From Chrysochromulina tobinii (Eukaryota), in NCBI GenBank assembly GCA_001275005.1, contig JWZX01003217.1, positions 1 to 54,972 on the forward strand: a DNA stretch of 54,972 nucleotides. The letters are read 5' to 3'. Position numbers and translations under genes: made by a program. Under the pieces are notes generated by a model. That model ran no database searches, had not been told where the DNA came from, and was given only the letters and a program-made list of their open reading frames with translations. Below, piece by piece: positions 12,601 through 45,399 of this stretch (position 1 is its first letter; each line of letters begins with the position of its first letter).

Positions 12601-14604
12601 CTTGCCCAGCAGCCCGCGGCCCGCGAGCCCCGTCCGTCCTCGCGGGTTGAGCGGCAGTCGCTTCTCATGATCCCAGAGCAGCACGCCTTTCGTCTCGTAT
12701 GTCTTGCGCGAGAGTACCTCGGCGATGAGATCGCTGCTCAGTGGCGCGGGCGGGTCGGCCCACTTAGCCTTCGCATGCGCACGTCGCTCTTCGCGCGTGG
12801 CCCCGTGGTTGCAGAACTTGGTCAGCACCGGGTGCTCGTACGTGGGCGGGTGGTAGCCTCCCGCCGCTGTCCAGTCGGCCTCCCATGGCACAAGACCCTC
12901 GTCCGCAATGGGCAGCCGGCGCACGCCTTCGGGGCAGTCCGCGCCCACGTAACGGTCGCGATCGCGCGCCTTAAGGTGCACGGGCGGCTTGGCGGGTTGC
13001 TCGAGGGAGCCCACTGGCTGCGGAACCTTGACGGCGCGGCGCGCCAGCTTGCGCCGCTCGATGTCAGCGTCAGTGCGCAGCTTGCAGCTGGCGACGACCG
13101 CGTTGAGGATGGAAGTCTCGAGAGACTCGGCTTTGGCCATTGAGAAGACGATCATCAGGTCACGCAACGTGCGCTTGTCGAGCGTGTGCGGCGCGGGCGT
13201 GTGCGAGAGTGAGGGCAGCAGCAGTCGCACCGCCTCCTCCACCTTCTCCCGTGGCACCTTGAGCACGTCCCACTGCTCAAGCTGCTCGTGTAGCAGAGTC
13301 GCCCAAAGCTCGACCGACCCCGGCTCTCGCTCCGGATGCTCCTGAACCTTGAGGGCGAAGTCCGCGAGGGCGCGTGCACAGCCGCGTGACTCGCGCACGA
13401 GCACGCAAGGCGTGTGGTTGCTCCAGGTCGTCAGGATCGTATTGAACGTGCCGCGCCCGCCCTGGACCATGAGGAGCACCCATCAGAGGTCATCAGGGTC
13501 ATCCGAGGTCATCAGAGGAGCGCTTACCTGGATAACGAGGAGCACTGAGGGCACCATGAGCTTCTCGACGAGCCGCCGCTCCACCTGGCCACGTAGCTCG
13601 ATCTCAGCACCCCATGCTGGAGCGCGTGCCCCCGGGTCGTCGACGAGGATGAAGTGCGAGTGGTTCATGTCCAGCGCCGACGACGCGCTCGAGTTCTTGA
13701 TCCGCTTGATGTACGGCAGCAGTGGCGGCGGCAGGCGCTCCTCGGGCTTCGCCTGCCGCAGGCTCTCCTGGTTCGTCACGCACCCGAGCGGGGCGATGCC
13801 GATGAGCGGGGTGGCCCATGCGTGTCCCTCGGCGCGCACGTTGGTAGTGGTCCGACTGCGCAACGCGCGCCCAACCAGCTCCATCACGCCCGTGTCCATG
13901 CCGCCCGTGATTACCCACGCGCGCGTCGAGGACGCCGCCGAGTCGATGCCGTCGCGCAGCATATTCTCAAGTCGTGGCTCAAGGTCCATCGCCTGCGCTG
14001 AGCCGCTTACAGTGAGGAGCACGGATGGCACCTGGATGCGCCAGTAAGACAGTAACAGCTTGACAATTGCATCCGCATCCGTGCGCGTCGACACGCCTGC
14101 GAAGCGTGCAGGCTCGTCCATCAGCTCGTCATCGAAAGAGAAGAAGAGGCGGCCGATCTGGTGGATGCCCGTCGCGTAGAGGTTCCCTACGTCGGCATTG
14201 CTCTCTTGCCAGCGCTCTTCGCGGCGGTCCTCCACCTGTTGCTCGCACTGGCTCGACCAGCACCAGCTCTGTGCCAGCAGTGGCTTGGATTGGCTTAGCG
14301 AGTTGTGCGATGCTGGCGCTGTTCGCGGTGAGCTGCCGGCTGGTGTCGCGTCGCCGGAGCTATCTATGCCGAGCAACCTGCCCCCTCCAGCGGTCTTCTT
14401 ATATGAGCCGTCGGGCAACGCACCGTCGGCGAATCTAGTGTGCGTGTCCATGCCGGACGTGGCGCCATCTTCTCTATCAACGTCTCCCGAATCCCTGCCG
14501 GCTTTACTGATTTCTTTGGCAGGCAGACTCGACAGGTTGAGCGGCAGCGCCGGCGTGTTGGTGCGAGGGTGCACGCGGGACGAGTCCCCTCGCTGCCAAT
14601 GCAT
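6657..14604 (-). CDS. TRPM-like cation channel: SLOG - NUDT9-like x2 - MHR3/4 - six-TM ion-transport domain - coiled coil
   Basis: SLOG motifs AWVITGGMDTGVMELVG, LIGIAPLG, LDMNHSHFILVD and VIQGG. Two copies of PLNPRGRTGLAGRGLLGKWGPNHAADPIVTR...YRGYVDDPR.TDHAWIET. MHR4-like LLVWGI..IWE..PLRAAL..KFISHRYCQALVEEMWNG. S6 motif LFVNLLIAMF. ORFs join in frame via introns 13462-13527, 12162-12251, 11374-11450 and 10492-10565. Start codon and extreme C-terminus are uncertain. Confidence 0.85.
10492..10565 (-). mobile_element. Introner-like intron, copy B (74 nt)
   Basis: Same core with 2 mismatches, followed by a 23-nt copy (1 mismatch) of the upstream exon end that supplies the AG acceptor; alternative in-frame acceptor at 10483. 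Confidence 0.7.
11374..11450 (-). mobile_element. Introner-like intron, copy A (77 nt)
   Basis: Core GTGCGTTGATTGCCACTGATGACCTGTCTTGCATGCAAGTGCTCACCACAGCG is near-identical to the intron at 10492-10565; removal restores SLPG-RLIREGET. Confidence 0.7.
12162..12251 (-). other. GT-AG intron (90 nt) built of a CAATCTCGCC minisatellite
   Basis: G|GTGCGCC...CTCGCAG|GA; removal restores NUDT9 C-terminal LGAGDDA..IWLDI...LYASH. Confidence 0.85.
13462..13527 (-). other. GT-AG intron (66 nt) with CTGATGACC filler repeats; its 3' end copies the upstream exon
   Basis: GTGCTCCTCGTTATCCAG|GTAAGC...GTGCTCCTCATGGTCCAG|GGC; contains an in-frame TGA. Confidence 0.85.
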
Positions 14605-14923
14605 GTAACGCGGCGCTCCGTGTTCCGACACGCTGGGCGCGCTTGCCTGTGCGACGGTTTTACGCAAACACGGTCGTTTTCACGCGTGTCGTCTGACGTG
14701 TGAACGTTCACAGCGGCGACAAGCGGAAGTGTTCTCGCTCGCCTTTATGACATAAAATTCCCTGGAAGTCGCTCCCGCATTAGACGAGCTGCGCCAATTA
14801 CTCTACAAGTATTCAATTAGTTTGATTCCCTGAAAGACGCTACTCGCAATAGGCGAGCCGCGCCTTCTTTTGTATTTCCTGGATGTCGCTCTCGGCAAAC
14901 CAGCGTGATCTGATACCTCTATG

Positions 14924-17098
14924 TCACGCCTCAAGCTTGCCCATGAGGCGTGTTGACGGCGCGCCTCTTCTTGTTGACGGGCCGCCACTTCTGCATGTTG
15001 TGATCGCGGTGCTTGCATTGGCAGCAGCCAACGTTTGGCTCTCGCGTTGCTGCACCACACGGCGCTGCTTGTCGAGTTCGAGTCGGCCCGCTTCCTTCCT
15101 GATATTCATCGATTCACGCATCATGTAGATGGCCATTTCCTTGAAGAGTGTCCAGGTTTTGACTGCCTTGTACGCGTTCGGATAGGCGTGGATGAGGTTC
15201 ACAAAGTCCCTCTTGCTGACGGAACTTGTGTGCACGTATGTGTTCGTCACCGCGCGCAGCGGCTTGGCTTTTGTCAGCAACAGATCGGGCCAGCCCCACG
15301 TATCTCCCGGACCGAGCAAACTGGATCTCGTGGATGAGATGCGGTAGTGGACGCTGCCCTGTGAGATGAAGTAGAGGCACTTACCCGGGGGCAATTCCTT
15401 GGGCCCGAAGACGACGGGGCGCATGCTCAGCACTATCTGGCACAGGAAGCCCTTGCGCTCGGCCTCCATCACTCTTTGAAAGCACCCGGAGACGAAGCAC
15501 GGGATCCGCAAGAGCCAGTGCTTGTTGAGCTCCCACGTCACCCTCTGCTTGAGCATGGGCGACAGCTGCTCGATCGCGGCCATGCGCGAATCGTACTTCA
15601 AGACGTCGATCGTGTGGAAGTAGTAGCGGCGTAGCTCACGGGAAATTTCCTTGGAGAGCTTGTACTGGTCGCAGAAGCGGTTTAGCGCGTCGAGCCCCTC
15701 GGTGAACCGTTTGCGGTCTGGGTCGGCCTGCGTGAGCGCGACAATCAAATTGCCGAAGATAACCGTCCACGCGAAGACGCCAAAGAGGAGCATGACGAGT
15801 AGCAGAATGTACTCGGTCGGCTTGAACTGCACCTCCCACTCCGGTTGCAGCGCAGCCGCGTCGGTAGGAGAGGTCGGAGACGTCGATGAGGAGGTCGGAG
15901 AGGTCGAGTAGAAGGGCTTGTAGGGGCCCATTGCCGGCGTGATCGAGTAGCCGGTGAGCAGCTGCACAGACCAGAAGAGGCAGTGGAGGTACCGATAGGC
16001 GACGTCCACACACTCGGCGAGCACCCTACCCTGTGAGTCGGTGAGCAGGCTTCCGTCGGCCTCGACGCCCGCGGGCTTGCAATAGCCAAAGGTGCCGAGC
16101 CACGTGTCGAGAGGTGATTCGAAAAATGTGGTCCAGATGGCAACAATGCAAGCGTATGCGTGCGTGAGCATGCACGTCTGGGCGAGAAGGCTGATGAGCG
16201 TGACGGTCACTGAGTTGAGCGAGATGCGCTCGCGAGCGCGCTGGAACACACGCGAGGCGCGCATGAGCCGCAACAGCTTGACCAAGCGCAGCGCGCGCAA
16301 TGTGCGCAGCGCCTTGGCGCCGCCCGCATCGGGCCCTTCATTCGAAATGACCGGCAGAATGTCAAAAATGGACGGAAAGATCGAGATGACGTCGAGGAAG
16401 AACCAGCCGCGCACGTAGTTGCGTGCAAGCGCACGCGGATTCATCTCCCAGGCGCTCTTGCCTACAGGATCGCCCGCCTTCGGAACGATTGGCGTCATGA
16501 TGAAGAATGCGAAGATCACATCTAGGATGAAGATGCAATCGACGATACGGTTGATCACAAAGAGCGGTTCGTCGGCGCGAGTGGGTGGAGGTAGGAAACC
16601 GACCTCGAACGGCGTCAGCGCCGCAGTATACATGAGCGCAAGCCCGCCGATCACATCCCAGGCGGGAAAGATGGTCATGTTACTCAGCACCTTGAGGGCC
16701 ACTTGGTTCAAGACGTTCCTGGCGTTGATTTCTGCCCTGTCAAGCACCCGAGTCCCTTGTGGCCTACGGGAACGGATGTCGAGGCGCTTGCGTGCCACCA
16801 TTCTCCTTCGCTGCTCTCTCACAAAGGTGCCAGTCGGGTCAATTATGTACCAAGGAACCTTCTGAACACCGTCCAGCTCCTTGTTGATCAGCTTTGCTTC
16901 GATGACATCAGACATGCTCCGCTCTTCCTTCGGCACCAACGCTTGAGGCACCTCTTCCTCGTCAAGCTGCGCCTTCGCGTCCGGCTGCGAATCAGGCTCA
17001 GTCACAGGGCCAAACAGTGCCGTACTGTTTGTGCTTCTGTTTTGAGTTCCTGCCGTGCTCGACCCTCTTGCAAGGGATACCTTACAACCTCTCCTCAT
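14924..17098 (-). CDS. Cyclic-nucleotide-binding-domain ion channel (KCNH/CNG/HCN superfamily)
   Basis: S1-S3 WD...Y.A..TPFEVGF, IVDCIFILD, NYVRGWFFLDVIS; S4 LRTLRALRLVKLLRLMR; C-linker LSKEISRELRRYY; CNBD LYFISQGSV..LGPGD. Confidence 0.85.
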   Translation of the reverse strand: MRRGCKVSLARGSSTAGTQNRSTNSTALFGPVTEPDSQPDAKAQLDEEEVPQALVPKEERSMSDVIEAKLINKELDGVQKVPWYIIDPTGTFVREQRRRMVARKRLDIRSRRPQGTRVLDRAEINARNVLNQVALKVLSNMTIFPAWDVIGGLALMYTAALTPFEVGFLPPPTRADEPLFVINRIVDCIFILDVIFAFFIMTPIVPKAGDPVGKSAWEMNPRALARNYVRGWFFLDVISIFPSIFDILPVISNEGPDAGGAKALRTLRALRLVKLLRLMRASRVFQRARERISLNSVTVTLISLLAQTCMLTHAYACIVAIWTTFFESPLDTWLGTFGYCKPAGVEADGSLLTDSQGRVLAECVDVAYRYLHCLFWSVQLLTGYSITPAMGPYKPFYSTSPTSSSTSPTSPTDAAALQPEWEVQFKPTEYILLLVMLLFGVFAWTVIFGNLIVALTQADPDRKRFTEGLDALNRFCDQYKLSKEISRELRRYYFHTIDVLKYDSRMAAIEQLSPMLKQRVTWELNKHWLLRIPCFVSGCFQRVMEAERKGFLCQIVLSMRPVVFGPKELPPGKCLYFISQGSVHYRISSTRSSLLGPGDTWGWPDLLLTKAKPLRAVTNTYVHTSSVSKRDFVNLIHAYPNAYKAVKTWTLFKEMAIYMMRESMNIRKEAGRLELDKQRRVVQQRESQTLAAANASTAITTCRSGGPSTRRGAPSTRLMGKLEA

Positions 17099-17617: not shown

Positions 17618-20186
17618 ATGACGTGTATCGATGAGTACACCCTCGAAAAGCGCCTCGGGCAGGGTGCGATGGGCACCGTCCACCTGGTGACGCGCAAGAG
17701 AGACGGGCGGCAGCTCGCCCTCAAGCGTGTCAACTTTGCGGATCTGTCACACGAGGAGCGCAAGCAGACGCTGCTCGAGGTCGCGCTGCTCTCTCGCCTG
17801 CGCCATCCGAATATCATCGAGTACGTCGAACATTTCCATGACGGCGACGATCTATGCATCGTCATGGAGGTCGCACCCGATGACGTGCTCAAGGTGGTGC
17901 GGCGTGCAAAAGCAGCGGGCACGCCGCTGCCCGAGGAGCAGCTGCTGAGCATCCTGTCGCAAGTGGCATCGGCGCTGCACTACGCGCACAGCTGTCGCGT
18001 GCTTCACCGCGATGTAAAACCGGCCAACGTGCTGCTCACGGCGGACGGCACGCCCAAGCTCTCCGACTTCGGCATCAGCTGTACCGTGATGCAACACGAG
18101 CTGTCCCTCGGGCGCGCGCTGGTGAAGCGTGCGGACGGCGTGCGCGAGACGGAGTTCGAGGCGGCGGCAGACATCCGAGTGGAGCTCAAGGGCACGCCCG
18201 CATACATGGCGCCCGAGCTCTTCAACCACAAGATGGAGATGAACACCACGTACTCGGCCGCATCGGACGTGTGGGCGCTCGGCGTCATGATGTTCGAGCT
18301 CATGCTGTTTCGTCTGCCGTATGAGGGCGCGTCGATGATGTCGATCGTGTACAAGCTCGTCAACAACCCGTCGCAGAACGCCCTCACCGACGCGCGCGGC
18401 GCGCACGGCCGCGGCCACACCCAGTACTCCCAGGCCATGTACGCGTGCGTCGAGGCGATGCTGCATAAGCGGCCGCAGCAGCGCGCGACGCTGCCAGAGC
18501 TACTTTCGCGCCAGGTGCTGCTGCATCATGCGCGCGGCGGCGGAGCGCCCAAGCGCTTCATCGACCTGCTCGAGGAGGGCGCTGCCCAGATGAGCGGCCG
18601 GCTACCCGACGTATACTCGTTTGGACGCGGTGGTACTCGCCCTCGCCTGCGCGACGACTTGATGGGTCTCCAGATTCGGCAAGTAGCCTGCGGCGCGGCG
18701 CACTGCGCGGTGGTCGCCGTCTCGGGTGAGGTGTTCACTTGGGGGAGGAACGAGTGCGGCCAGCTTGGCCACGGCGACAGGAAGCAGCTCAGCCTACGGA
18801 GGCGCGTGCTTTTCGCCGAGGAGGTCGAGGGCGCCGTCGTGGTGCGCGGCGTCGCGTGCGGCTTCGCGCATGCAAGTGCTCACCACGGCGTCCTATTCCC
18901 CACAGGTGCGCGGCGTCGCGTGCGGCTTTGCGCACACGATTGCGATCGCCCAGCACGGGCGGCGCCTGTACGCGTGGGGCAGCGACAAGCACGGGCAGCT
19001 CGGGCTGGGGAGTGGCGCCTTTTGCCGCGCGGACGTGGGTCTGCAGGTCGCGATCCACGAGGGCGAGCTAAGCATTGAAGGCGTGTGGCGGCCGATTCAC
19101 TGGGGCACGCTCCAACCGACCGACGTGGCGCGAGCGCGAGTGATCGCTGTCGAGGAGGGCTTCGGAGGCGCGGTGACCCTGAGCGCGCTATCCGAGGAAG
19201 GCGAGAGCACGGAGATCGAGATCGAGATCGGCAATCCACGGCTGATGGGTTTGCGTGATCCGATGGATTGCGTGCTCACGCCGACGGCGCTGCGGACTGT
19301 CCTCGATGACGTGGCAGAGGCGTGGGCCGTCGTGGCGTGCGGCGATCGGCACTCGGCCGCCATCACCACTGCGGGATCCGCGTACGCATGGGGCAGCGCC
19401 GATGACGGACGGCTCGGGGTGCTCCTTGTCCCAGGGGAGAGCCGCGTGCTGGCCCCTCGGAAGCTGCCACTCTCGCTGCGAGTGCCCGAGACAGCGCGCG
19501 AGCTCGAGGGCCACTTGGAGGGCCACTTGGCGATGGTGGACTGCGGCGACGAGTTCACGTGCTACGTGGACGAGGCGGGCCGGCTGTGGGGTTGCGGCGC
19601 CAACTACGACGGGCAGCTTGGCATCGACGATCCGGACGTGGGGGAGGTTGGCACGCCGATGCGGCTGATTCCCTGGGGTCCCACTGACCCGGACGACGTG
19701 GGGATTGACTTCATTGCGTGCGGCGCGACGCACGTGGCGGCGGCCGATACGTTGGGGAGGCTCTGGCTGTGGGGCGGGCGGTTCGGCATGCCGCCGACGA
19801 AGGTTCGCTTGCCAGGCCGTTACGAGGACCCAGCTGACGAGAACGCCCTGGGCAGCCCTTGCGCGCTGGTCGCGTGCGGCGCGGACCTCGTCTTCACCGT
19901 GACGGACGACGGCGACGCCTTCACCTGGGGCGAGGGCAGCCACGGCCGCCTCGGCCTCGACGACGGCGCCCAATCTCATGAGGCGCCGCAAAGTCTTGCG
20001 TCACTCTCGGCGCCGCCAGTGAGGGTGCTGATGGTCGCGTGCAGCAAATCGGTCGCCAGCGCGGACGAGGGCCCGGCGGTGCTCGTGCTAGGCGAGCCCC
20101 ACGAAAGCGGCGCCCTCCACGATCAGTTCAAGCGCTTCCTACTCGCCGACAATGACCAGCGATGGGACGGGCGTCCCGCCCGTTGA
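17618..20186 (+). CDS. NIMA-related kinase with RCC1 repeats (NEK8/NEK9-like)
   Basis: LGQGAMG, ALK, LRHPNIIEY, HRDVKPANVLL, DFG, GTPAYMAPE, SDVWALG; RCC1 repeats VACG..H, WG.N..GQLG. Two ORFs joined by intron 18842-18905. Confidence 0.9.
18842..18905 (+). mobile_element. Intron (64 nt) sharing the GCATGCAAGTGCTCACCAC core; its 5' half copies the downstream exon
   Basis: GTGCGCGGCGTCGCGTGCGGCTT(C/T)GCGCA occurs at 18842 and again at 18906; ends ...CCCCACAG; removal joins the two ORFs in frame. Confidence 0.7.
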
Positions 20187-26235: not shown

Positions 26236-27741
26236 ATGTACTGGGTGTTGATTCAGAGCGCGGCACTAGCAGCGGCGCTCTTGATCATCATCATCTCGTT
26301 CTGGCCTCACTCCTGCGTCCATGATTCCCGGCCAACCGTCAAAATGCTGCCCCGAACGGCAACGGCAGCGGCGGGCAGGTGCCCGGGGCAGCAATGTGTG
26401 TCGGGAGAGGCTGCTGGGCTACCAATGCCCAGTTCGGATGCTCCAGACGGCCACGAGTGGTTGGGTGGCGCTCTCGGCTTTGCTGAAGCACCGAACGCCA
26501 CAGATGGTTACACAACGGCGAGGGCGCCGGTGAATGCGACGCTGCTCCTGATCGGCGTTGTGAGCGGCTCCAAGAACTTCGATGTGCGCGCGTGGCTTCG
26601 CCGCGCCTTCTGGCGTCAACGGGCATGGAGACATGGTGTTGGCTGGCGCTTCGTCGTGGGCACCACCTTGCCTCGGGGCGACAACGACCGCGTCTCGCTG
26701 AACTATGAAGCACGTCGCCATGGAGACATGGATCTGGTGCGGGGCAGCGAGCTGCCGCCGCGGCAAGCTCGGGTCGCGCTCCGTTGGTGGCTGCACGCTG
26801 CAGTACTCGCCACACAGGCGCATGCACCGGCATACTTTGCGCTCACGTACGACGCCGTACTCTTGAGCTTGCCCCGACTGGCCTCTCGATTGCGCTCCGT
26901 GGGGAGGACGCATCGCATGCGTCAACGGCCGGCCGAGCGGCGCTACCTTTACGGAGGCGACCTGCGCTGGGCCGCTTGGGCCGAGAGCAGCGAGCGGGCG
27001 GGCGCCACATGGCGCTGCGTGAGTGCAGTCACGCCGGTCGAGCTGCTCAGTGCGCGGTTGGCGGGGGACGTCGGTCCTCCCGCCGACACGCTCACACCCA
27101 GCGGCCGGCAGACGGCGACCAAGGCGGCGGAGAGCGGCTCGTTCTCCTCGGCGTGCACGAGGGGCGGCAGAGGCACCAAAGGCGCCAGCGACGGCAACAG
27201 AGCGGGCAACAGAGGGGGCACATCGGGCACATTCCTAGCTGCGAGTCCGGAGCTACAGGTGCTCTCAGCGCCGCTGCTGCGCGCACTGCAAGGCCCGATG
27301 GCCTACCGGCTACGCGCGCACCGATTGGAAGTGGTGCCGCCGTTGTCGCTCTGGGACCGATCGGAGACGTATCACCAGAGCGCCGCAGGGCGCACACCTT
27401 CGCAGCCCGCTCTGCTCGCGGCCACGGTGCTCGCTCGCGCCGTGTACAATGCGAGCCGGACGCGCGGGGGCATCGCCTACGTCGAGTTGCGCAGTGCACC
27501 CGATGCGCCCGCGTTCTCGTGGGAGGTCGAGCCGCTCGTCGTGCCCGGGGCCCGCTCGTTGCTCGTGCGCGGCGTGACGAATGGCATCGCCGCTGAGGCT
27601 GTTGTTGAGCGCTTCGAGCGCCAGCAGCGCTCGCCGTCGAACGTGCCCGTCCGCGTGCGCTGCTCACGCGCACGCTGCGAGCAGTGGGGGCTCGCCGAGG
27701 CCGATGCCGCCACCGCGTGTTGCGAAACCCAGCATCAGTGA
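26236..27741 (+). CDS. Type II membrane GT31 (galactosyltransferase)-like protein, divergent
   Basis: N-terminal TM; LLLIGVVSG..NFDVRAWLRR..W, RFVVG, EARRHGD; the usual KTDDD position reads LTYDA. Confidence 0.6.
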   Translation: MYWVLIQSAALAAALLIIIISFWPHSCVHDSRPTVKMLPRTATAAAGRCPGQQCVSGEAAGLPMPSSDAPDGHEWLGGALGFAEAPNATDGYTTARAPVNATLLLIGVVSGSKNFDVRAWLRRAFWRQRAWRHGVGWRFVVGTTLPRGDNDRVSLNYEARRHGDMDLVRGSELPPRQARVALRWWLHAAVLATQAHAPAYFALTYDAVLLSLPRLASRLRSVGRTHRMRQRPAERRYLYGGDLRWAAWAESSERAGATWRCVSAVTPVELLSARLAGDVGPPADTLTPSGRQTATKAAESGSFSSACTRGGRGTKGASDGNRAGNRGGTSGTFLAASPELQVLSAPLLRALQGPMAYRLRAHRLEVVPPLSLWDRSETYHQSAAGRTPSQPALLAATVLARAVYNASRTRGGIAYVELRSAPDAPAFSWEVEPLVVPGARSLLVRGVTNGIAAEAVVERFERQQRSPSNVPVRVRCSRARCEQWGLAEADAATACCETQHQ

Positions 27742-27882
27742 AATAGTGCGATGGAAGAAACGAAATTTCGATTTCGTTTTCACAGACGCTCTTCACGGAT
27801 CACGCGTTCAGAGGGGGCGCAGTGGGCGTCGGTCGACGCACACACACGCGCGCGCGTGCGTCGAGCCCAACAAGGTGCGGGC

Positions 27883-29121
27883 ATGAGTTCGCTCTATCGT
27901 TCATCAATCAGCGGTTGCTTGCTGTCCGAGGTACGCCAGCCCTGCGGGCATGCTCACGCGTACCGCACACGCTCACGGCTGCACTGTCGATCTCGCGCGC
28001 AGCTTCTCACCGACATGATCGACAACGGGCAGCTCCCTGAGTACGCGTACGATATCGGCTTCGAGCACTTTGACAAAGAATGGTGTGAGCACTGGACGGT
28101 CACCGACTGGTCAGAGACCAAAGCGCCTGAGCTCAAGACCAGCATTAAGGCCTCGGTCGAGTGGTACCGGTCAGTGGACAATGTGTACACCTTCATGCTG
28201 CGCGACGCCATCTGCACCGGGTCCGCATTCACCGGCATTGCTGGCCCGCTGTGGAGCATCAAGGTTGGACGAATGAAGCTAGTCGCCGTCGACAGCAAAA
28301 ATGTAGCACTCGCGACGGCGACGGCAGTGGAGAATCTGGCGGCAGTCATTGCATCTGATGCAGCTGAAGTGGATGAGCACGACGATCTCACTTACGGGCT
28401 TGTCGATCCGCGGCATCCCATCAGGAGAGTTGCAGCGACGACTTTCGCGCCGCTGCCAAACGAATGGGCACGGGCACCGGCTTTAGACCGGCAAGAGGAG
28501 GAGCCGTGGCAAGCTGAGGAGGAGGCGTACGAGCGGCCGGCGGCACAGCGCCGTCGACTCCCACAATACGATGGGCCTGGTGACGGTCAAGAAGGTGGCG
28601 GGGGTGGTAGCGGCGGTGGAAGCCGTGGTGGCGGTAGCGGTGGTCGCAGTGGTGGCGGCAGCGGCGGCGGCGGTGGCGAAGATGCGTTCGACGAAGACGA
28701 TGACTTTGATGACGACGACGTGGTGGTTGCGACAAACGCTGCTCGTGCAGAGGACGACGAGGACGACGAGGACGACGAGGAGGGTCTGGCACCAGAAGCG
28801 GGCGCTGACGATGGCGTTCTTGGGCCCGATCCCAACGAGGTTGAGGACGGCGAGGAGGTGGACGAGGAAGAGCCTCTCAACTCAGATGACGACGAGGACG
28901 ACGAGGACGAGCGAGCGGGCGATGGGGCACTCGCTGATGGCGCCGTTGGGCCGCTGAACGCCGACGTCGTCAATCTCGTCTTGGCGCAATTCGACAAGGT
29001 GCGGCGTACGGGGGAGCTGTGGAAGCTCTCGCTGCGCGCCGGGATGGCCCACCTCGTGATCGAGGGCAAGAACAACCACTACGCGTTCGCCCGTGCCGAT
29101 TGCGAGTTTACGTTTGCGTAG
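27883..29121 (+). CDS. TFIIA gamma-like domain fused to TFIIA beta-like C-terminal domain
   Basis: Gamma-like LYRSSISG.LL...MIDNGQL...FDK, YRSVDNVYTFML, KVGRMKLVAVDSK; linker QYDG; beta-like EEPLNSDDD, NLVLAQFDKVRRT..WK..L..G, YAF..A.CEF. In-frame intron 27931-28002. Confidence 0.75.
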   Translation: MSSLYRSSISGCLLSEVRQPCGHAHAYRTRSRLHCRSRAQLLTDMIDNGQLPEYAYDIGFEHFDKEWCEHWTVTDWSETKAPELKTSIKASVEWYRSVDNVYTFMLRDAICTGSAFTGIAGPLWSIKVGRMKLVAVDSKNVALATATAVENLAAVIASDAAEVDEHDDLTYGLVDPRHPIRRVAATTFAPLPNEWARAPALDRQEEEPWQAEEEAYERPAAQRRRLPQYDGPGDGQEGGGGGSGGGSRGGGSGGRSGGGSGGGGGEDAFDEDDDFDDDDVVVATNAARAEDDEDDEDDEEGLAPEAGADDGVLGPDPNEVEDGEEVDEEEPLNSDDDEDDEDERAGDGALADGAVGPLNADVVNLVLAQFDKVRRTGELWKLSLRAGMAHLVIEGKNNHYAFARADCEFTFA

Positions 29122-29377
29122 TTTTTGGGCGGCGGCGTCGTGCGGCGACCGCGGTTCTCGGGCTGATGGTGTCACCGTCACAAAATGGTTGGACGCTCAG
29201 TGAACTCCACACGGAGGGTCGAGTCTGCCGGCTCGTTTTTCAGTGTGAACGTCATCGCCCGTGCTGTGAACACATGTGAACACTGTTCGCCCTCTCAGAA
29301 TTTTTTGAAGGACACAAGAAAGTGCTTTCGGTCCACGGTTGTCTCTCCGACACGTGCGTCTTCCCAAAGCCGTGCAA

Positions 29378-30604
29378 ATGCTTGATGAGATCCGACACGC
29401 CGCCTTTGTAAGCCACGCGCAGAGAGGTGAGCGCGTCATCAGCCTCGACGGATCGCGGGCACGGCCTCCGCTTGCCTGCGATGGCTGCGGGAAGACACTG
29501 GAGCCACCTGTCGTGTTTTGCCCGCTCGTCGCCTCGGACGATAACTTACTGCCTCCCGGCTCGGACGGTGGCATGACCATGGACGGTGACGTTGGTGCTC
29601 GTGCGGATGACCAGTATTTCTGCTCTGAGTGCCGCTCAGTGCTCCTTGGCCCGCCATGCCGTGGCTGCGGGAAGCCCACGTCTCGAGCCGACGGCGTGTT
29701 GGCGGGCGACGCGCATTGGCACAAGCAGTGCTTGCGCTGCCCGCACGTGGCGTGCCAAGCACTACTTGGCGAGCGGTATTTCGTGCACGAGGACCGCATC
29801 TTTTGCCGCGAGCACTATCTTGCGCGGGCCGCCGAGCACTGCGCCGGATGTGGAGGCGTCGTCGACGGCGGCCTGCGTGCCCTCGGCCGCGCGTGGCACG
29901 AGGGCTGCCTGCGCTGTGCCGTGAGCGACGAGCCGCTCGTCGCGGGCGAGGCCTTCTTGCACGAGGGTCGGCCGGTCGCACCGACGGCGCGCGAGCGCAC
30001 TGCACCGCGGTGCCACGGGTGCGGCGAGCCGGCGACGGCGAATCGCGTGTACGCGCACGGTGTGGTCTACCACCATGACTGTTTCCGGTGCGTCCACTGC
30101 CGTGCAATCGTCGGCGAGCGCCGCTTCGTCATGTTCGACTCTGAGCCATACCTCGACGGCTGCTATCAGAAGCTCTTTGGTGCCTCGGCGGGCGAGGCTA
30201 TGCGCGCGCAGCTGCATGGAGAGATCCGACGATACGCACTCAGTGTGCCCCTGCTCCCATCGCTCGGCGCGCCCGGGCTGCAACGCTTCCTCATCAAGCA
30301 TGAGGAGCTCCTTCCGTCCGTGCGCCGTATGCTCCGCGAGCACGGCATCGTCCAGTTCGGATCCTTCCTATTTGAGCCACCGGCGGTCTCGAAGCCGTTG
30401 CTCATGCTGCACATGCAGATCCCGGTGATGCTCGATGCCGCAGAGGCGCTGCCGCAGCTCCTGCAGACCGACCGTATCGGTCAGGAGTGGGAGCAGCTCG
30501 TTGCCTCTGTGCACGACGCCCCCGGGTCGCGCGGACGAGCCTGGTACGAGAACATGGTCCAGGAATGTGGCTCCAAAGCCGAGCCGAGGGGTGAGGATTT
30601 GTGA
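29378..30604 (+). CDS. LIM-domain protein (3-4 LIM/half-LIM) with C-terminal L-rhamnose-mutarotase-like domain
   Basis: CxxC...WHxxCxxC..C...CxxH/C repeats; C-terminal RRYAL...KHEELLP.V...LREHGI..F..FL...QEW. Confidence 0.8.
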   Translation: MLDEIRHAAFVSHAQRGERVISLDGSRARPPLACDGCGKTLEPPVVFCPLVASDDNLLPPGSDGGMTMDGDVGARADDQYFCSECRSVLLGPPCRGCGKPTSRADGVLAGDAHWHKQCLRCPHVACQALLGERYFVHEDRIFCREHYLARAAEHCAGCGGVVDGGLRALGRAWHEGCLRCAVSDEPLVAGEAFLHEGRPVAPTARERTAPRCHGCGEPATANRVYAHGVVYHHDCFRCVHCRAIVGERRFVMFDSEPYLDGCYQKLFGASAGEAMRAQLHGEIRRYALSVPLLPSLGAPGLQRFLIKHEELLPSVRRMLREHGIVQFGSFLFEPPAVSKPLLMLHMQIPVMLDAAEALPQLLQTDRIGQEWEQLVASVHDAPGSRGRAWYENMVQECGSKAEPRGEDL

Positions 30605-32854: not shown

Positions 32855-35800
32855 CTACGCCTTGACCACGTTCCGGACTCGGCCCAGTCCGAGCTCTTTC
32901 AGCCTACGGATGGTGCGGGTCTCGAGCTCGCGCGCGGCCGACTTGGACTCGACCTCGACGAGCACACACTCCAAGAGCCGGTCAGCATGGCGCCGGCGGT
33001 GTTGCTGCAGCCGCCGCCCGATACTATCCGACTCGCCCACGTACAGCGCGGGTGCGACGGCGCTGCCGCTCACCTGGGCGCCCTCCTTGGCACCGAGCTG
33101 GAGCACGTACACGCAAGAGCGCCCATTCAACCGTGGCGGCGGTTGCCAGTCGGCGTGAACCTGAACGAGGTGGTCGCTGCCACTGAGCGCGCGTAGTACC
33201 TCACCTGCCGCGCACAGCTGACTCTTTCTCTGCTCGTCTGCCTTTGCGGCCGCTTCGACGTCGAGAATGGTCGCCGCCCACTCCTCCGCTGCTGTGCCAG
33301 TGCTGCCCTCACCCTCCTCCTCCTCCTCCTCCTCGCCGCCTTCCACCTCGCCGCCCTCCTCCTCGGCACGGGCTTTGCTCATGCCTGCCAGCAGAGCCTC
33401 GGCGCGCTCGACCAGGTCGGCGGGCAGCCCAGCGCCGCGCGCAACGTGGAGCGCGAGCGAGTTGCGGCTCATGCCCTCGGAAAGGGTGAAGCTCATGGCG
33501 ATACGGCCATCGGCGGCGGCCTCGGCTACCGGCAGGCACATCCAGCGGAGCGAGGGCAAGGTCGGCAGGCGCGCGAGCAGTGACTCGAGCTCATGCAGAT
33601 GCGTCGCGAAGACGGCGCTCATCTGGTGCCGGTCGAGCCACTCGAGCAGCGCTGCGGAGAGGGCAGTGCCCTCGTTCGTCGAGGTGCCCCGTCCGATCTC
33701 GTCGAGCATGAGAAGGGATCGACGCGTCCCCTCCCTTGTCATCAGCTGCAGGTCATCCATCTCTTGCGCAAACGCCGACTTGCCCTCGGCGGGCGCGTCG
33801 AAGGACGTTGTACGAAGGAAGAAGGCGTCGTAGCGCGGCACCGTCGCTGAACGCACGGGAGCCAGCAGACCGCTGTTGGCGAGGAGCGCCGCGACGAGCA
33901 TCGAGCGCATCAGCGACGACTTGCCCGCCATGTTGGGCGCAGTAAGCAGCCACAGACCGTCCCATGCGAGGGTGTTTGGCGTGGCTGCGTGCTGCGGGAG
34001 CCAGTATGGCCACACCCCCTCGAGCTCGAGCATGCGGTCCGCGTCGGACGCCGTCTTGAGCAAAGGCAGCGCCCATCGCTGCTCGAGGGCATATCCGACG
34101 TGTGCGGCCAGCGTGGTCGAGAGCAGCACCCAGTGTGCGGCTGTCACGAGCGTGGGCATAGCGGGCGCCAGCTCGTCGCACAGCCGCTGCAGATGCTCCT
34201 TGACGGCGCGCTCGGCACAGTCGCAAGCCTCGAGGTAGCGCACCGTGGCCTCGCGCATCCGTACGCTCAAGTACCGGTTGGCAAGCACGCGCTTGTTGCG
34301 ATCGCGGGCGGGCTCGAGGTGCGCTGGCGTGGGTGGTGAGCCTGGGCCCCGGACCCCATCGCCGCCTCCAAGATCGTCGCCTTCGCCATCGCCGCTATCG
34401 CCGTAGGCGGCCGCCGCGGCCGCGCTCCTGCGCACGTAGAGCTTGCCTGTGCCTCTGCGCAGGTAGATTGCGTTGTTGATGGTGTCGTGCACGACGATCT
34501 GCCCTGTGGCACGCACATCTTCGGCGACGCCGTCACAAAGCTCGCGTGCAGCGGCCTCGAGGGCCGCGTACTCGCCGGCCACCCTCTCCCGCCGAATGAG
34601 CTTACGGAAAGTACCCTCATTACGCTTGAAGAAGCCCTCCGGGATGAGGCCGTGCGCGTCCGTGCACGGCTCGTCGGCGGAGGTGGCCGCGCTGTCGGCC
34701 ACAAGACCCGTGATGTTCTCGTGCGCGCGGTGCGCGCTCTCGGCGAGGTGCGATGGGGAGAGTCGCAGGCCCGACTCCTCGGCGACGAGCGCGAGGAGCG
34801 CCTTGTTCAAACGCGCGAGCTCCGGCGAGCGTAGCGCCGCGTGCACTGCCGCGAGCACCTGCCGCAGCTCGAGGAAGAGCGGCGCGTTCGCTTGTCGCGC
34901 GAGGAGCAGCGAGACGAGCTTGCCTATCGGCACGGGGCGCGCCCTCGGCAGGGCGGTCGATAGCGCCACGAGTTCCGCGCACGCGTCGTGCATCGCGTCC
35001 GCCACCGACGGTCGCGGCGGGAGCAGCAGCCAGCGCCGGAGCAGATGCACGCACGCCGCAGGAGCGTCCGGCGGCAGCACGGAGCGCATCAGGTCGGGTA
35101 CGCCCGGCGCGGGCAGCAGCCCAATCTGCGTGGCGGTCGACATGAATAACGGTGTGGGCGGCGCGTCAAGACCCTCGCCCCGGGAGGGCAGTTGCCGAAA
35201 GGAGCGACCGTCCACCTGCGCTTCCTCCGCGACGAAGTCGATCATCGCCTGTGGGAAAGCGCCAGGGCTTGGCACGTTGAGCGCACGCTTCTCCAGGTGC
35301 GCGAGCGCGCGCGGGAGTGAGATGTCCCCGAGGTCGTTGATGAGGAGCGGCGGCGCGTGTGGACGTGCCGACAGCAGCGCGTGCAGCGCCGCGGGCGAGA
35401 GCCGCTGGTACAGCCGCCACGCACGCGAGTCGAGATGCACGAGCACGACCATGTAGCCGCTCGCGGTGGCGCTGACGCCCGCAAAGGGCGGCGGTTCGGC
35501 GTAGTCGATCTGGTAGGGCGAGAGGCACGCCTCGTAGTGATACACGGGCGAGGCGGGCGAGACTACTTGTGCAAGTACGCGCTGCTTCAGCTTGCGGAAG
35601 CGCCCCTCGCCTGTGCCGGCAGGCGCGACCTCCTCGTAGACCGCGACTGTGAGGCCCGCGGAAGTGAGCGCATCGAGCGTCGCCTGCACGTTCTGGACGG
35701 GACATCCGGCACGGCATTTGCTGCCCATAGGGTTGAGCCCCGCCCACTGCACAAGCATGAGCGCATCGAACCCGAACGCCTCGTAGAACTCACCCACACG

Positions 35801-36091
35801 AATGAGGAGCAGCTGATCAGGCCGCTTTTCCTTCTCGAGAACGGCGAACTCAACGAGCGTACCGCTCGTCCGCGCGACTTTGTTCTCGAAGCACAGGGCG
35901 TTTTCCGTCGAAAGGTATGGCACGAGCGCTATCGCTGCTGGCTTTGTCAGCTCGGCAAGCCGCTGCCGCCAAAAGGGAGTCAGCTGCAAGCTGCTCTCGC
36001 CGGCAGAGGAGGTGCACGCGATAGCCATGCGAAGCAGCGAGCGCTGCGGCAGCAGCGAGAGCGACGAAACGCCGAGGCAGGAGAACAACAT
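32855..36091 (-). CDS. MSH1: Plant-type organellar MutS homolog 1 (MutS + C-terminal GIY-YIG nuclease)
   Basis: RVGEFYEAFGFDA.MLV..AGLNP..AGCP (MSH1-type mismatch-binding domain); Walker A LLTAPNMAGKSS; KSAFAQEM; LDEIGRGTS; FATHLHEL; GIY-YIG SCVYVL...YVGESDSI..RL..HR. Start at ATG 36091 or 36187. Confidence 0.9.
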   Translation of the reverse strand: MLFSCLGVSSLSLLPQRSLLRMAIACTSSAGESSLQLTPFWRQRLAELTKPAAIALVPYLSTENALCFENKVARTSGTLVEFAVLEKEKRPDQLLLIRVGEFYEAFGFDALMLVQWAGLNPMGSKCRAGCPVQNVQATLDALTSAGLTVAVYEEVAPAGTGEGRFRKLKQRVLAQVVSPASPVYHYEACLSPYQIDYAEPPPFAGVSATASGYMVVLVHLDSRAWRLYQRLSPAALHALLSARPHAPPLLINDLGDISLPRALAHLEKRALNVPSPGAFPQAMIDFVAEEAQVDGRSFRQLPSRGEGLDAPPTPLFMSTATQIGLLPAPGVPDLMRSVLPPDAPAACVHLLRRWLLLPPRPSVADAMHDACAELVALSTALPRARPVPIGKLVSLLLARQANAPLFLELRQVLAAVHAALRSPELARLNKALLALVAEESGLRLSPSHLAESAHRAHENITGLVADSAATSADEPCTDAHGLIPEGFFKRNEGTFRKLIRRERVAGEYAALEAAARELCDGVAEDVRATGQIVVHDTINNAIYLRRGTGKLYVRRSAAAAAAYGDSGDGEGDDLGGGDGVRGPGSPPTPAHLEPARDRNKRVLANRYLSVRMREATVRYLEACDCAERAVKEHLQRLCDELAPAMPTLVTAAHWVLLSTTLAAHVGYALEQRWALPLLKTASDADRMLELEGVWPYWLPQHAATPNTLAWDGLWLLTAPNMAGKSSLMRSMLVAALLANSGLLAPVRSATVPRYDAFFLRTTSFDAPAEGKSAFAQEMDDLQLMTREGTRRSLLMLDEIGRGTSTNEGTALSAALLEWLDRHQMSAVFATHLHELESLLARLPTLPSLRWMCLPVAEAAADGRIAMSFTLSEGMSRNSLALHVARGAGLPADLVERAEALLAGMSKARAEEEGGEVEGGEEEEEEEGEGSTGTAAEEWAATILDVEAAAKADEQRKSQLCAAGEVLRALSGSDHLVQVHADWQPPPRLNGRSCVYVLQLGAKEGAQVSGSAVAPALYVGESDSIGRRLQQHRRRHADRLLECVLVEVESKSAARELETRTIRRLKELGLGRVRNVVKA

Positions 36092-36317
36092 GATGAGGAT
36101 CGCCGATACATGTACTTCGCCGATATGGATTGGTGACCTCAAATTCCCCACTACAACCTGTTTGGCGTAGGGCAATGCAGTGTCCATTGCACTTGTGAAG
36201 GAGAGCGTGAGTGGTGTGTCTCGTTGAACACGTGGCGCTCCCTGGCGTTCTGCGGGACCGATTTCATGTCGACGGCTTCGACTGCTTGGTTTGAGGAGCT
36301 AAGCAAACTTTCCGCCA

Positions 36318-43949: not shown

Positions 43950-45167
43950 TCAGACCTCCTGTGGCACGGCGGCGCCGACCGTGGCACCGACTGCCGCCAA
44001 AGGCAATGCCTCCTGATGAGCATCCTCAGCCACATCGTCCACCGAAAGCTCTCGGATAGACGCCACGTCGGTGGTCAGGCATGCCGGGTTGACGCCCGCT
44101 TTGTGCGCAGCGAGGAGGCCGAGCGCTTCCATGTAGTTATTAACGACTACCACGCCAGAGGCGCGGAGCGCGGCCGCCGAGACATCGAGCGCGCACGTAT
44201 TTTCCTCGACAGCGACGACCAGCGAGCGCGTACCGAGCCGCGCCATCACCGCGGCCCCTCCGCACGCGCCAGCAGGCACGACGATGGCATCGATGTCGTC
44301 GCTCCACAGGTCGCCTGGCAACGGCCGCTCGGACCCATCGAGCAGCGCGGGCGCGCGAGCAAGGTTCACGAGCACGCACGGGAGGAACGTGTGCCCCAGC
44401 TCCTCGGCGCACGTGCGCGGCGAGAGCTCCGGCTCCAGATCGATCGGCCCGAGGGCCGGTGCATGCGCACATGGCAGCTGCAGCTCCTTTGTGATCAGGT
44501 GCGAGATGACGGCCTCGACGCCGCCCACAGAGTCGACACCGCTGCCAGCACGGTACTCGGCCAGCATCTCCTCGTCCTCATCGTCGGGCATGCGCGTGAC
44601 CACCGCAATCGCCGTGCAGCCTGCATCCCGAAGACGCCGTGCGGCCTCGAGGAGCAAATCGGGGCGGCCGAGCGTGCCCCAGCTTGCGCCCGCCGCAGAG
44701 AGTCGAAGCTCCACCTCAAGGGGCGCCGCTGTTGTCGCGTACGCTGCAACGTTGACGCCGAGGGTCGCGCGCGTAGCATCAGCGGCCTGCAAGTGGCGCA
44801 AGCGCAACTCGGGCTCGATGGCAGCGTCAAGCAGGAGCCCCACGCGCTGGGAAGTCACAGGCCTCAGCCCCCACCGACCGGCGGCGAACTCGTCGAGGGC
44901 ATATCCCTCGACATACTGCAGCGCAGGGTGGGGCCAGTAGAGCATCGCGCCGTTCATCACATTGGGATGGGTGATTACCCGGTCTGCCACGCCTGTAAAA
45001 GCACGTGCCACAGGCAGTGCGTCGCCCGCGAATCCGCCTATGGCGGCACCGATGCCTGTAGGTACAACCAGAACTGCCGTATATGGCGACGACGTTAGGC
45101 GTGGTGGCGCTCGCTCAAGTGGAGCGCGCAAGGCCACTGTCATCAGAAAGCAAAGCCCCGCAGCCAT
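43950..45167 (-). CDS. DUF3326 family protein (cyanobacterial/plastid type)
   Basis: VLVVPTGIGAAIGGFAGDALPVAR, ITHPNVMNGA.LYW, YVEGYALDEF, GGVEAVISHL, AEELGHTFLPCVL. Confidence 0.8.
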   Translation of the reverse strand: MAAGLCFLMTVALRAPLERAPPRLTSSPYTAVLVVPTGIGAAIGGFAGDALPVARAFTGVADRVITHPNVMNGAMLYWPHPALQYVEGYALDEFAAGRWGLRPVTSQRVGLLLDAAIEPELRLRHLQAADATRATLGVNVAAYATTAAPLEVELRLSAAGASWGTLGRPDLLLEAARRLRDAGCTAIAVVTRMPDDEDEEMLAEYRAGSGVDSVGGVEAVISHLITKELQLPCAHAPALGPIDLEPELSPRTCAEELGHTFLPCVLVNLARAPALLDGSERPLPGDLWSDDIDAIVVPAGACGGAAVMARLGTRSLVVAVEENTCALDVSAAALRASGVVVVNNYMEALGLLAAHKAGVNPACLTTDVASIRELSVDDVAEDAHQEALPLAAVGATVGAAVPQEV

Positions 45168-45399
45168 GTTAGGTTGGAGCTCTGATGAAACTTCATCATC
45201 ACCTCTCCCCCCCCCCCCGTCACGCATTCAACTGAGCATTCAACATACGGATAACACAATAAGCATGGTTCAACCTTTCACCTACGGATGGCGGACGCGC
45301 ATACAGACCCGTAGACAGGATCACATAACATTACAGAGCGAGAGACTTCTACGAGTACGATCGCCGGAACTTACATGTACTTGTAAGCTTCTAAGCTTC

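What the first reader, a model, noticed from the sequence alone, without database searches (positions are those of the whole stretch)
27883..29121. Single-chain TFIIA: gamma subunit fused through a QYDG linker to the beta domain
Seen: a TFIIA-gamma-like N-terminus, PQYDG at 28561-28575, a Gly/acidic linker, then a TFIIA-beta-like C-terminus, all in one ORF. No clear alpha helical domain. Established: TFIIA is normally encoded by two genes (alpha/beta and gamma), and metazoan alpha/beta is cut by taspase 1 at QVD|G; gamma and beta together form the TBP-binding barrel. Inference: a rearranged general transcription factor in which gamma takes the place of alpha, with a retained taspase-like site.
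Basis: partly seen in the sequence, partly recalled or inferred. Interest (0 to 1): 0.8.

Follow-up and report, generated by a model that had tools for sequence, protein, structure and literature searches.

The report
Algal TFIIA gamma-beta fusion lacking alpha
In this haptophyte alga and its relatives, one spliced gene joins the small subunit of the core transcription factor TFIIA to the tail half of the large subunit and leaves out the large subunit's helical front half, which likely comes from a separate gene: a new way of dividing up a normally two-gene machine.

Summary
The fusion is real. The gene (27883-29121, +) encodes TFIIA gamma, a disordered linker holding PQYDG, then TFIIA beta. 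One correction: a 72-nt in-frame intron (27931-28002) is spliced out in RNA, giving 388 aa. The same architecture occurs in 14 proteins examined. Named members are a Chrysochromulina parva gene model and a Calcidiscus leptoporus transcriptome peptide; Phaeocystis has a partial one. An alpha profile (72 sequences), profile-profile comparison and AlphaFold find no alpha domain in the chain, and the profile finds none in the window. The model matches solved TFIIA gamma and beta chains. The gamma-beta barrel is therefore likely built within one chain. The taspase idea is weak: QxDG is missing from 6 of 14 fusions, is in 61 of 72 ordinary large subunits, and Tyr is outside the published consensus. 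Where alpha went is open, because no whole genome was held and my searches were insensitive. A separate small alpha gene is most likely (about 0.5). Outright loss (about 0.28) would be more surprising. Ten literature searches and the scan's own notes showed no description of this fusion.

The parts
27883..27930 (+). Exon 1 coding part: start and first half of gamma helix 1 (MSSLYRSS...)
   Evidence: RNA contigs start at 27827 and 27837; the upstream in-frame ATG at 27751 is not joined to the gene by any contig; relatives start at the same Met
27931..28002 (+). 72-nt in-frame GT..AG intron without a stop codon
   Evidence: Skipped in RNA contigs of runs X1 and X3; ends read; absent from P0004 and P0005
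28003..29121 (+). Exon 2 coding part to the stop codon
28003..28098 (+). Rest of the TFIIA-gamma helical hairpin (aromatic-rich second helix)
   Evidence: A profile of family N-termini including this exon hits human gamma at E 2e-18; PF02268 in relatives
28147..28302 (+). TFIIA-gamma three-strand half of the barrel (WYRSVDNVYTF ... MKLVAVDSKN)
   Evidence: PF02751 E 7e-5; aligns to human gamma
28303..28560 (+). Unconserved linker where an alpha domain would have to lie; none detected
   Evidence: No Pfam hit at E<=10; alpha HMMs negative; hhalign probability <=0.3%; no secondary structure here in models of two relatives
28561..28575 (+). PQYDG, the inherited QxDG motif of the TFIIA large-subunit linker; cleavage untested and doubtful
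28597..28875 (+). Gly/Ser tract followed by acidic tracts (predicted disordered)
   Evidence: Sequence; low pLDDT in relatives
28876..28893 (+). LNSDDD motif that precedes the beta strands in large subunits
   Evidence: Aligns to human beta EEPLNSEDD; present in 13 of 14 fusions
28972..29118 (+). TFIIA-beta three-strand half of the barrel (NLVLAQFDKVRR...CEFTFA)
   Evidence: PF03153 above cut-off; aligns to human and yeast beta; rmsd 0.7 A to solved beta chains for the Calcidiscus model

Best explanation
This spliced gene joins TFIIA gamma to the QxDG-acidic-beta half of the large subunit in one chain with no alpha domain, and the chain is predicted to fold its own six-stranded barrel that likely binds TBP and promoter DNA, while the alpha helices likely come from a separate, not yet found gene. 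Shown: the gene, its splicing, the domain order, the absence of alpha in the chain, and the same order in three prymnesiophyte orders (complete in two, partial in Phaeocystis). Inferred: a single origin before these orders split, by a break in the ancestral alpha/beta gene inside its unconserved linker; this chain is the working TFIIA and not a spare copy; the gamma hairpin pairs with a free alpha hairpin to restore the four-helix bundle. In effect the separation of alpha from beta that taspase 1 makes in animals would be fixed in the genome, and QxDG would be a leftover. Confidence in the fusion and its barrel role alone is about 0.9; the figure given covers the whole statement including the separate alpha gene.
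For: Gene and splicing. Gamma-to-QYDG is bridged by single RNA contigs in X2 (28032-28644) and X13 (28120-28576). Two X2 contigs overlap by about 28 nt in the acidic repeat when placed collinearly. One Calcidiscus transcriptome peptide carries PF02268, PF02751 and PF03153, all above cut-off. Family: of the best 150 of 1264 profile hits, 10 are gamma+beta, 74 alpha+beta, 51 beta only, 15 gamma only and 0 gamma+alpha. In a 45-column beta tree all 14 fusions and 6 fragments lie on one side of a branch (local support 94) from all 72 alpha+beta proteins. Structure: the Calcidiscus model has pLDDT 85-96 over the core gamma helices and most strands, and TM 0.79-0.87 to solved gamma chains; the top hit is the engineered single-chain TFIIA 5M4S. 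That gamma-alpha-beta chain is active in a TBP/TATA band shift (PMC5690282, passages). DNA-contact residues: yeast Toa1 K250, V251, R253, K255, R257 and K259 are essential (PMC10716077, passages); the window keeps 4 of 6 and Calcidiscus 5 of 6 as the same or another basic residue. For an alpha partner: the gamma hairpin still scores above the Pfam cut-off in several fusions (39-46 bits in P0052, P0056, P0218), and an alpha-helix mutant (L38A K39A) is lethal in yeast.
Against: No alpha-only gene was found. The window's six frames are negative. A metagenome scan returned 11 loci: 9 ordinary alpha+beta genes, 1 cut by the contig end, 1 false hit, none haptophyte-like. No whole genome was held, so a canonical alpha/beta gene elsewhere is not excluded; only 150 of 1264 hits were seen. 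No single RNA contig of this organism spans the whole gene. The window protein has lost the K255 and R257 equivalents, and its hairpin is more diverged and aromatic than in coccolithophore-type members. The beta tree has few columns and long branches. The window's own spliced protein was not folded; the models are of relatives P0004 (mean pLDDT 42) and P0218 (mean 69).
Confidence: 0.52

Rival explanations
1. Alpha has been lost outright. The gamma-beta chain is the whole TFIIA: a barrel that stabilises TBP, with the gamma hairpin unpaired, paired with a second copy of itself, or covered by another factor.
For: No alpha in any of 14 fusions, in the 55-kb window, or as an alpha-only locus. The bundle lies away from TBP and DNA (PMC10716077, passages). 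A human beta+gamma 'mini-TFIIA' that binds TBP but lacks coactivator function is recalled from Ma et al. 1996 (not retrievable). The Chrysochromulina-type second helix has gained aromatic residues, which could cover an exposed face.
Against: The searches for alpha were insensitive (exact-word or pattern based). The hairpin keeps a canonical pattern in coccolithophore- and Phaeocystis-type members. Alpha-helix residues are essential in yeast.
Confidence: 0.28
2. A normal alpha/beta gene persists elsewhere. This gene is the organism's gamma subunit, or a specialised paralogue, carrying an extra beta tail that competes or swaps with the canonical beta.
For: Not excluded: no genome was available, and a conserved canonical large subunit from a haptophyte would look like any unnamed alpha+beta hit. 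Duplicated TFIIA subunit genes are known, for example two small-subunit candidates in Plasmodium (PMC1199594, passages).
Against: The beta half keeps its strands and LNSDDD in 13-14 of 14 diverged fusions, which a redundant tail would be unlikely to do. No alpha+beta protein falls among the fused betas.
Confidence: 0.16
3. One reading: the chain is a precursor that a taspase-like protease cuts at QYD/G, releasing separate gamma and beta. This can hold together with any answer about alpha.
For: QYDGPGD resembles human QVDGTGD, including P3' Gly and P4' Asp. QxDG is in 8 of 14 fusions, twice or more in 4.
Against: Y at P2 is outside Q[FILV]D/GxDD. Only 4 of 14 fusions have Q[FILV]DG and 1 of 14 the strict consensus; 6 of 14 have no QxDG. 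Uncleaved human TFIIA supports transcription. A haptophyte taspase 1 was not looked for.
Confidence: 0.12
4. Artefact: two neighbouring genes or a mis-assembly that happen to be in frame.
For: No RNA contig of this organism spans 28645-28786 as one listed piece.
Against: The same protein is on 12 contigs, in a 47-member cluster that includes a cultured-strain gene model. The architecture recurs in diverged lineages and in a transcriptome peptide.
Confidence: 0.02

Closest known systems
Canonical TFIIA: large subunit (human GTF2A1 alpha/beta, yeast Toa1; PF03153) plus small subunit (GTF2A2 gamma, Toa2; PF02268 + PF02751)
   Same: Gamma hairpin, gamma strands, QxDG, acidic tract, LNSDDD and beta strands are all recognisable; the predicted fold matches 1NVP and 1NH2 chains.
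   Different: The chain boundary is moved: gamma+beta are one polypeptide and alpha is not on it. The beta C-terminal Trp is mostly Phe or Tyr.
Engineered single-chain TFIIA, PDB 5M4S (Gupta et al. 2017, PMC5690282)
   Same: Gamma first, beta last, on one chain; best hit by sequence and by fold.
   Different: 5M4S is artificial and contains alpha between gamma and beta; the natural chain has a long disordered linker there instead.
Taspase-1-cleaved metazoan TFIIA (alpha, beta, gamma)
   Same: Alpha is not covalently joined to beta.
   Different: Here the separation is in the gene, beta is tied to gamma, and the motif deviates from the taspase consensus or is missing.
Human 'mini-TFIIA' of beta+gamma (Ma et al. 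1996; recalled, not retrievable)
   Same: Same two components.
   Different: As recalled, a non-covalent subcomplex from cells that also make alpha; here it is one conserved gene.

Membership tests
TFIIA small subunit (gamma/Toa2) | N-terminal two-helix hairpin (PF02268) | tested here: met
   No hit on the intron-containing frame. Relatives hit, several above cut-off. The family profile including the window exon hits human gamma at E 2e-18.
TFIIA small subunit (gamma/Toa2) | C-terminal three strands with the YR..DNV.TF motif (PF02751) | tested here: met
   E 7e-5, 23 bits, below cut-off in the window; above cut-off in P0005, P0052, P0056, P0218. The Tyr is kept in 14 of 14; its TBP-contact role is recalled.
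TFIIA small subunit (gamma/Toa2) | Stand-alone polypeptide of about 110-125 aa | tested here: not met
   Continues in frame into linker and beta; RNA contigs run through the gamma end.
TFIIA large subunit (alpha/beta, Toa1) | N-terminal alpha helical hairpin | tested here: not met
   72-sequence alpha HMM: best E 1.1 among gamma-bearing proteins, and that on gamma's own helix; hhalign <=0.3%; no linker helices in models.
TFIIA large subunit (alpha/beta, Toa1) | Acidic region, LNS.DD motif and C-terminal three beta strands | tested here: met
   PF03153 positions 306-413 above cut-off; alignments.
TFIIA large subunit (alpha/beta, Toa1) | Basic DNA-contact cluster (yeast K250, V251, R253, K255, R257, K259) | tested here: inconclusive
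   4 of 6 kept in the window, 5 of 6 in Calcidiscus.
Taspase 1 substrate | Q[FILV]D/GxDD site | tested here: not met
   Window QYDGPGD; strict consensus in 1 of 14 fusions. Human TFIIA itself departs at P3' (QVDGTGD).
Taspase 1 substrate | Protease present and cleavage in vivo | not testable with these tools
   No genome held; no proteomics.
Functional TFIIA complex | Four-helix bundle of alpha and gamma hairpins | tested here: inconclusive
   Alpha is absent from the chain and the window; a separate gene was neither found nor excluded.
Functional TFIIA complex | Stabilises TBP on promoter DNA | not testable with these tools
   Needs a binding assay; inferred from fold and residues only.

The most novel reading that the evidence does not exclude
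Prymnesiophyte haptophytes, including coccolithophores and Phaeocystis, have discarded the TFIIA alpha domain and initiate transcription with a one-gene gamma-beta TFIIA. The four-helix bundle that TFIID, SNAPc and activators contact in animals and yeast is then absent or rebuilt from two gamma hairpins.
Probability: 0.28. Interest if true: 0.88.

Novelty: new variant of a known kind. Interest (0 to 1): 0.7.

Why it matters
TFIIA is described as alpha/beta plus gamma in animals and yeast, and is predicted in that form even in Plasmodium. A major phytoplankton class appears to divide the same parts differently, and to have kept that division across three orders. This is a natural experiment on two open questions: whether the alpha hairpin and four-helix bundle, which contact TFIID lobe B, SNAPc and activators, can be uncoupled from or dropped by the TBP-binding barrel, and what the QxDG motif does outside animals, since several fusions live without it. 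It also warns annotators: the in-frame intron hides the gamma hairpin, and a beta-only Pfam hit can be mistaken for a normal large subunit.

Tried and rejected
Hidden alpha in the linker: rejected. Upstream ATG 27751 as start: not favoured. Complex prediction of two copies of P0048: no answer, score 0.00, alignment not used; it is no evidence for or against homodimers. Word-based protein searches were crowded out by the low-complexity linker: 4 hits, 7 hits, and 1 hit in the 'longer' search, which missed even known members, so they say nothing about range. A metagenome scan with the fused alignment found 0 of 595 candidate stretches. The alpha scan found no haptophyte-like locus among 11. ESM Atlas: whole protein best 0.87 to fungal TFIIA-L clusters; alpha query best 0.85 to short clusters that may be fragments; leads only. 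Two paralogous fused subtypes forming a heterodimer: considered because the gamma domains fall into a WYR type and a coccolithophore/Phaeocystis type (support 89/79); the three named members fit a split by lineage equally well, so it is not argued. Literature: 10 searches gave no description of a natural gamma-beta fusion; the library lacks most subscription papers, and no supplements were read. Passages read: PMC5690282, PMC1199594, PMC5668323, PMC9758055, PMC10716077, PMC4580454, PMC11453091, PMC5294985; others were seen as search listings only. Ma 1996, Hoiby 2004, Zhou 2006 and Kang 1995 were not held. VIA-align was busy and gave no result.

Full report
1. Observation. The frame 27883-29121 (+) is open for 412 codons. 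It carries a gamma-like start, WYRSVDNVYTF and MKLVAVDSKN (gamma strands), PQYDG at 28561-28575, Gly/Ser and acidic tracts, LNSDDD and the beta strands. Pfam finds PF03153 above cut-off but only over profile positions 306-413, and PF02751 at E 7e-5, below cut-off. The best PDB sequence hit is the engineered single-chain TFIIA 5M4S, matched in its gamma and beta parts. The mRNA product is 388 aa. Removing the intron rejoins helix 1 of gamma, as in relatives.

2. One transcript. Single RNA contigs run from the gamma strands through QYDG in X2 (28032-28644) and X13 (28120-28576), and nearly to it in X3 (28001-28537). No listed piece spans 28645-28786, which the tool skipped as repeat. Placed collinearly, one X2 contig ends at 28776 and the next starts at 28749, so they overlap in the GACGACGAG repeat; this is an inference from coordinates. 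All four runs have zero depth at 29200-29327, as expected of RNA. The independent support is a Calcidiscus leptoporus transcriptome peptide (P0218, 334 aa) with PF02268, PF02751 and PF03153 all above cut-off in one chain.

3. Family and range. The window protein's 90% cluster (47 members; this exact protein on 12 contigs) includes a Chrysochromulina parva gene model. A profile search of 1.84 billion representatives gave 1264 hits at E<=0.001, of which the best 150 were returned. With my own alpha, gamma and beta HMMs these sort as 10 gamma+beta, 74 alpha+beta, 51 beta only, 15 gamma only and 0 gamma+alpha. Several gamma-only hits are visibly cut: P0060 is the front of the fused P0203, and P0049, P0067 and P0140 run on into QxDG. 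Others, such as P0170 on a 584-base contig, cannot be judged, and P0098 looks like an ordinary free gamma. Adding cluster members gives 14 gamma+beta proteins analysed; two are 85% identical, three lack their N-terminal part, and P0203's beta is weak (E 0.0055). Named members belong to Prymnesiales, Coccolithales and, as a partial protein with gamma and QLDG, Phaeocystales. That the unnamed ones are haptophytes is inferred. In a beta-domain tree (45 columns, FastTree) all 14 fusions and 6 fragments are separated from all 72 alpha+beta proteins by one branch with local support 94. This fits one origin, but the alignment is short.

4. No alpha in the chain. The linker has no Pfam hit at E<=10. 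An alpha HMM of 72 sequences scores no gamma-bearing protein better than E 1.1 and finds nothing in six frames of the window. Profile-profile comparison gives <=0.3%. The linkers do not align between lineages. AlphaFold2 of P0218 with 29 sequences gives two long helices, three gamma strands and a beta half at pLDDT mostly 85-96, and no secondary structure from about residue 130 to 288. Foldseek ranks 5M4S first, then solved gamma chains (TM 0.79-0.87) and beta chains (rmsd 0.7 A for 1ytf_C, 1nh2_C and 1nvp_C). A shallower model of P0004 was poor (mean pLDDT 42) but also hit TFIIA first. The window's own spliced protein was not folded.

5. How it likely works. In yeast and human TFIIA, three strands of gamma and three of beta form the barrel that contacts TBP and DNA, and two helices each of alpha and gamma form a bundle that points away from DNA (PMC10716077 and PMC1199594, passages). 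The fusion puts both barrel halves on one chain. A gamma-first, beta-last chain is known to fold and to shift TBP/TATA DNA (PMC5690282, passages). Of six Toa1 residues essential for promoter contact, the window keeps four and Calcidiscus five. The gamma Tyr recalled as a TBP contact is kept in 14 of 14. So barrel function is likely, but untested. The gamma hairpin needs a partner. It still scores above the Pfam cut-off in several fusions, and an alpha-helix mutant is lethal in yeast, so I favour a free alpha gene (about 0.5). I did not find one: no genome was held, and a pattern scan returned 9 ordinary alpha+beta loci, 1 cut locus and 1 false hit of 11. Loss of alpha (about 0.28) and a persisting canonical alpha/beta gene (about 0.16) remain open.

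6. The QYDG motif. The taspase 1 consensus is Q[FILV]D/GxDD and human TFIIA has QVDGTGD (PMC5668323, passages). The window has QYDGPGD. QxDG occurs in 8 of 14 fusions, Q[FILV]DG in 4, and the strict consensus in 1; Calcidiscus has none. It occurs in 61 of 72 ordinary large subunits, more than once in 34. It therefore marks the piece of large subunit that was carried over, and is not evidence of cleavage.

7. Known or new. Ten full-text searches found no report of a natural gamma-beta TFIIA. The only paper holding both 'TFIIA' and 'Emiliania' is a virus review that does not link them, and the C. tobin genome paper has no mention of TBP or taspase in its main text. Subscription papers and supplements were not seen, and domain databases may list the architecture without comment. 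The scan's notes hold no look-alike. Verdict: a real, expressed, lineage-wide re-division of TFIIA, a new variant of a known factor; interest 0.7, rising to about 0.9 if alpha proves lost.

Noticed in passing
window 12187-17098 (-): Three consecutive ORFs with Ion_trans, SLOG-of-TRPM and NUDIX hits, in that order along the minus strand. TRPM2-like parts, but the recalled TRPM2 order is SLOG, channel, NUDIX; may be two genes or a rearranged channel-enzyme.
   Followed up: no
window 32855-36187 (-): 1110-aa MutS protein (MutS_I, MutS_V) ending in a stretch that resembles a GIY-YIG nuclease (motif recalled), as in plant MSH1.
   Followed up: no
window 29378-30604 (+): Three-LIM-domain protein with a weak C-terminal L-rhamnose mutarotase-like hit (E 0.02), directly downstream of the TFIIA gene.
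   Followed up: no
window 17618-20186 (+): Protein kinase followed by RCC1 repeats across two ORFs, a NEK8/9-like layout (name recalled).
   Followed up: no
window 43950-45227 (-): Strong DUF3326 match (E 3e-147).
   Followed up: no
proteins P0033, P0066, P0187 versus window 27931-28002: Relatives translated from genomic DNA begin with intron-like text just before the same point in gamma helix 1, suggesting a shared intron position.
   Followed up: partly
proteins P0001-P0005, P0046-P0051 versus P0052, P0053, P0056, P0061, P0067, P0140, P0218: The fused gamma domains fall into two types (WYR..D.VYTF with aromatic helix 2, versus a more canonical type with a one-residue insert before the first Tyr strand); tree support is weak. 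Lineage split or paralogues is unresolved.
   Followed up: partly
window 26236-27741 (+): 501-aa ORF with an N-terminal membrane anchor and no Pfam hit at E<=10, ending 141 bases upstream of the TFIIA start; RNA contigs cover its 3' end.
   Followed up: no
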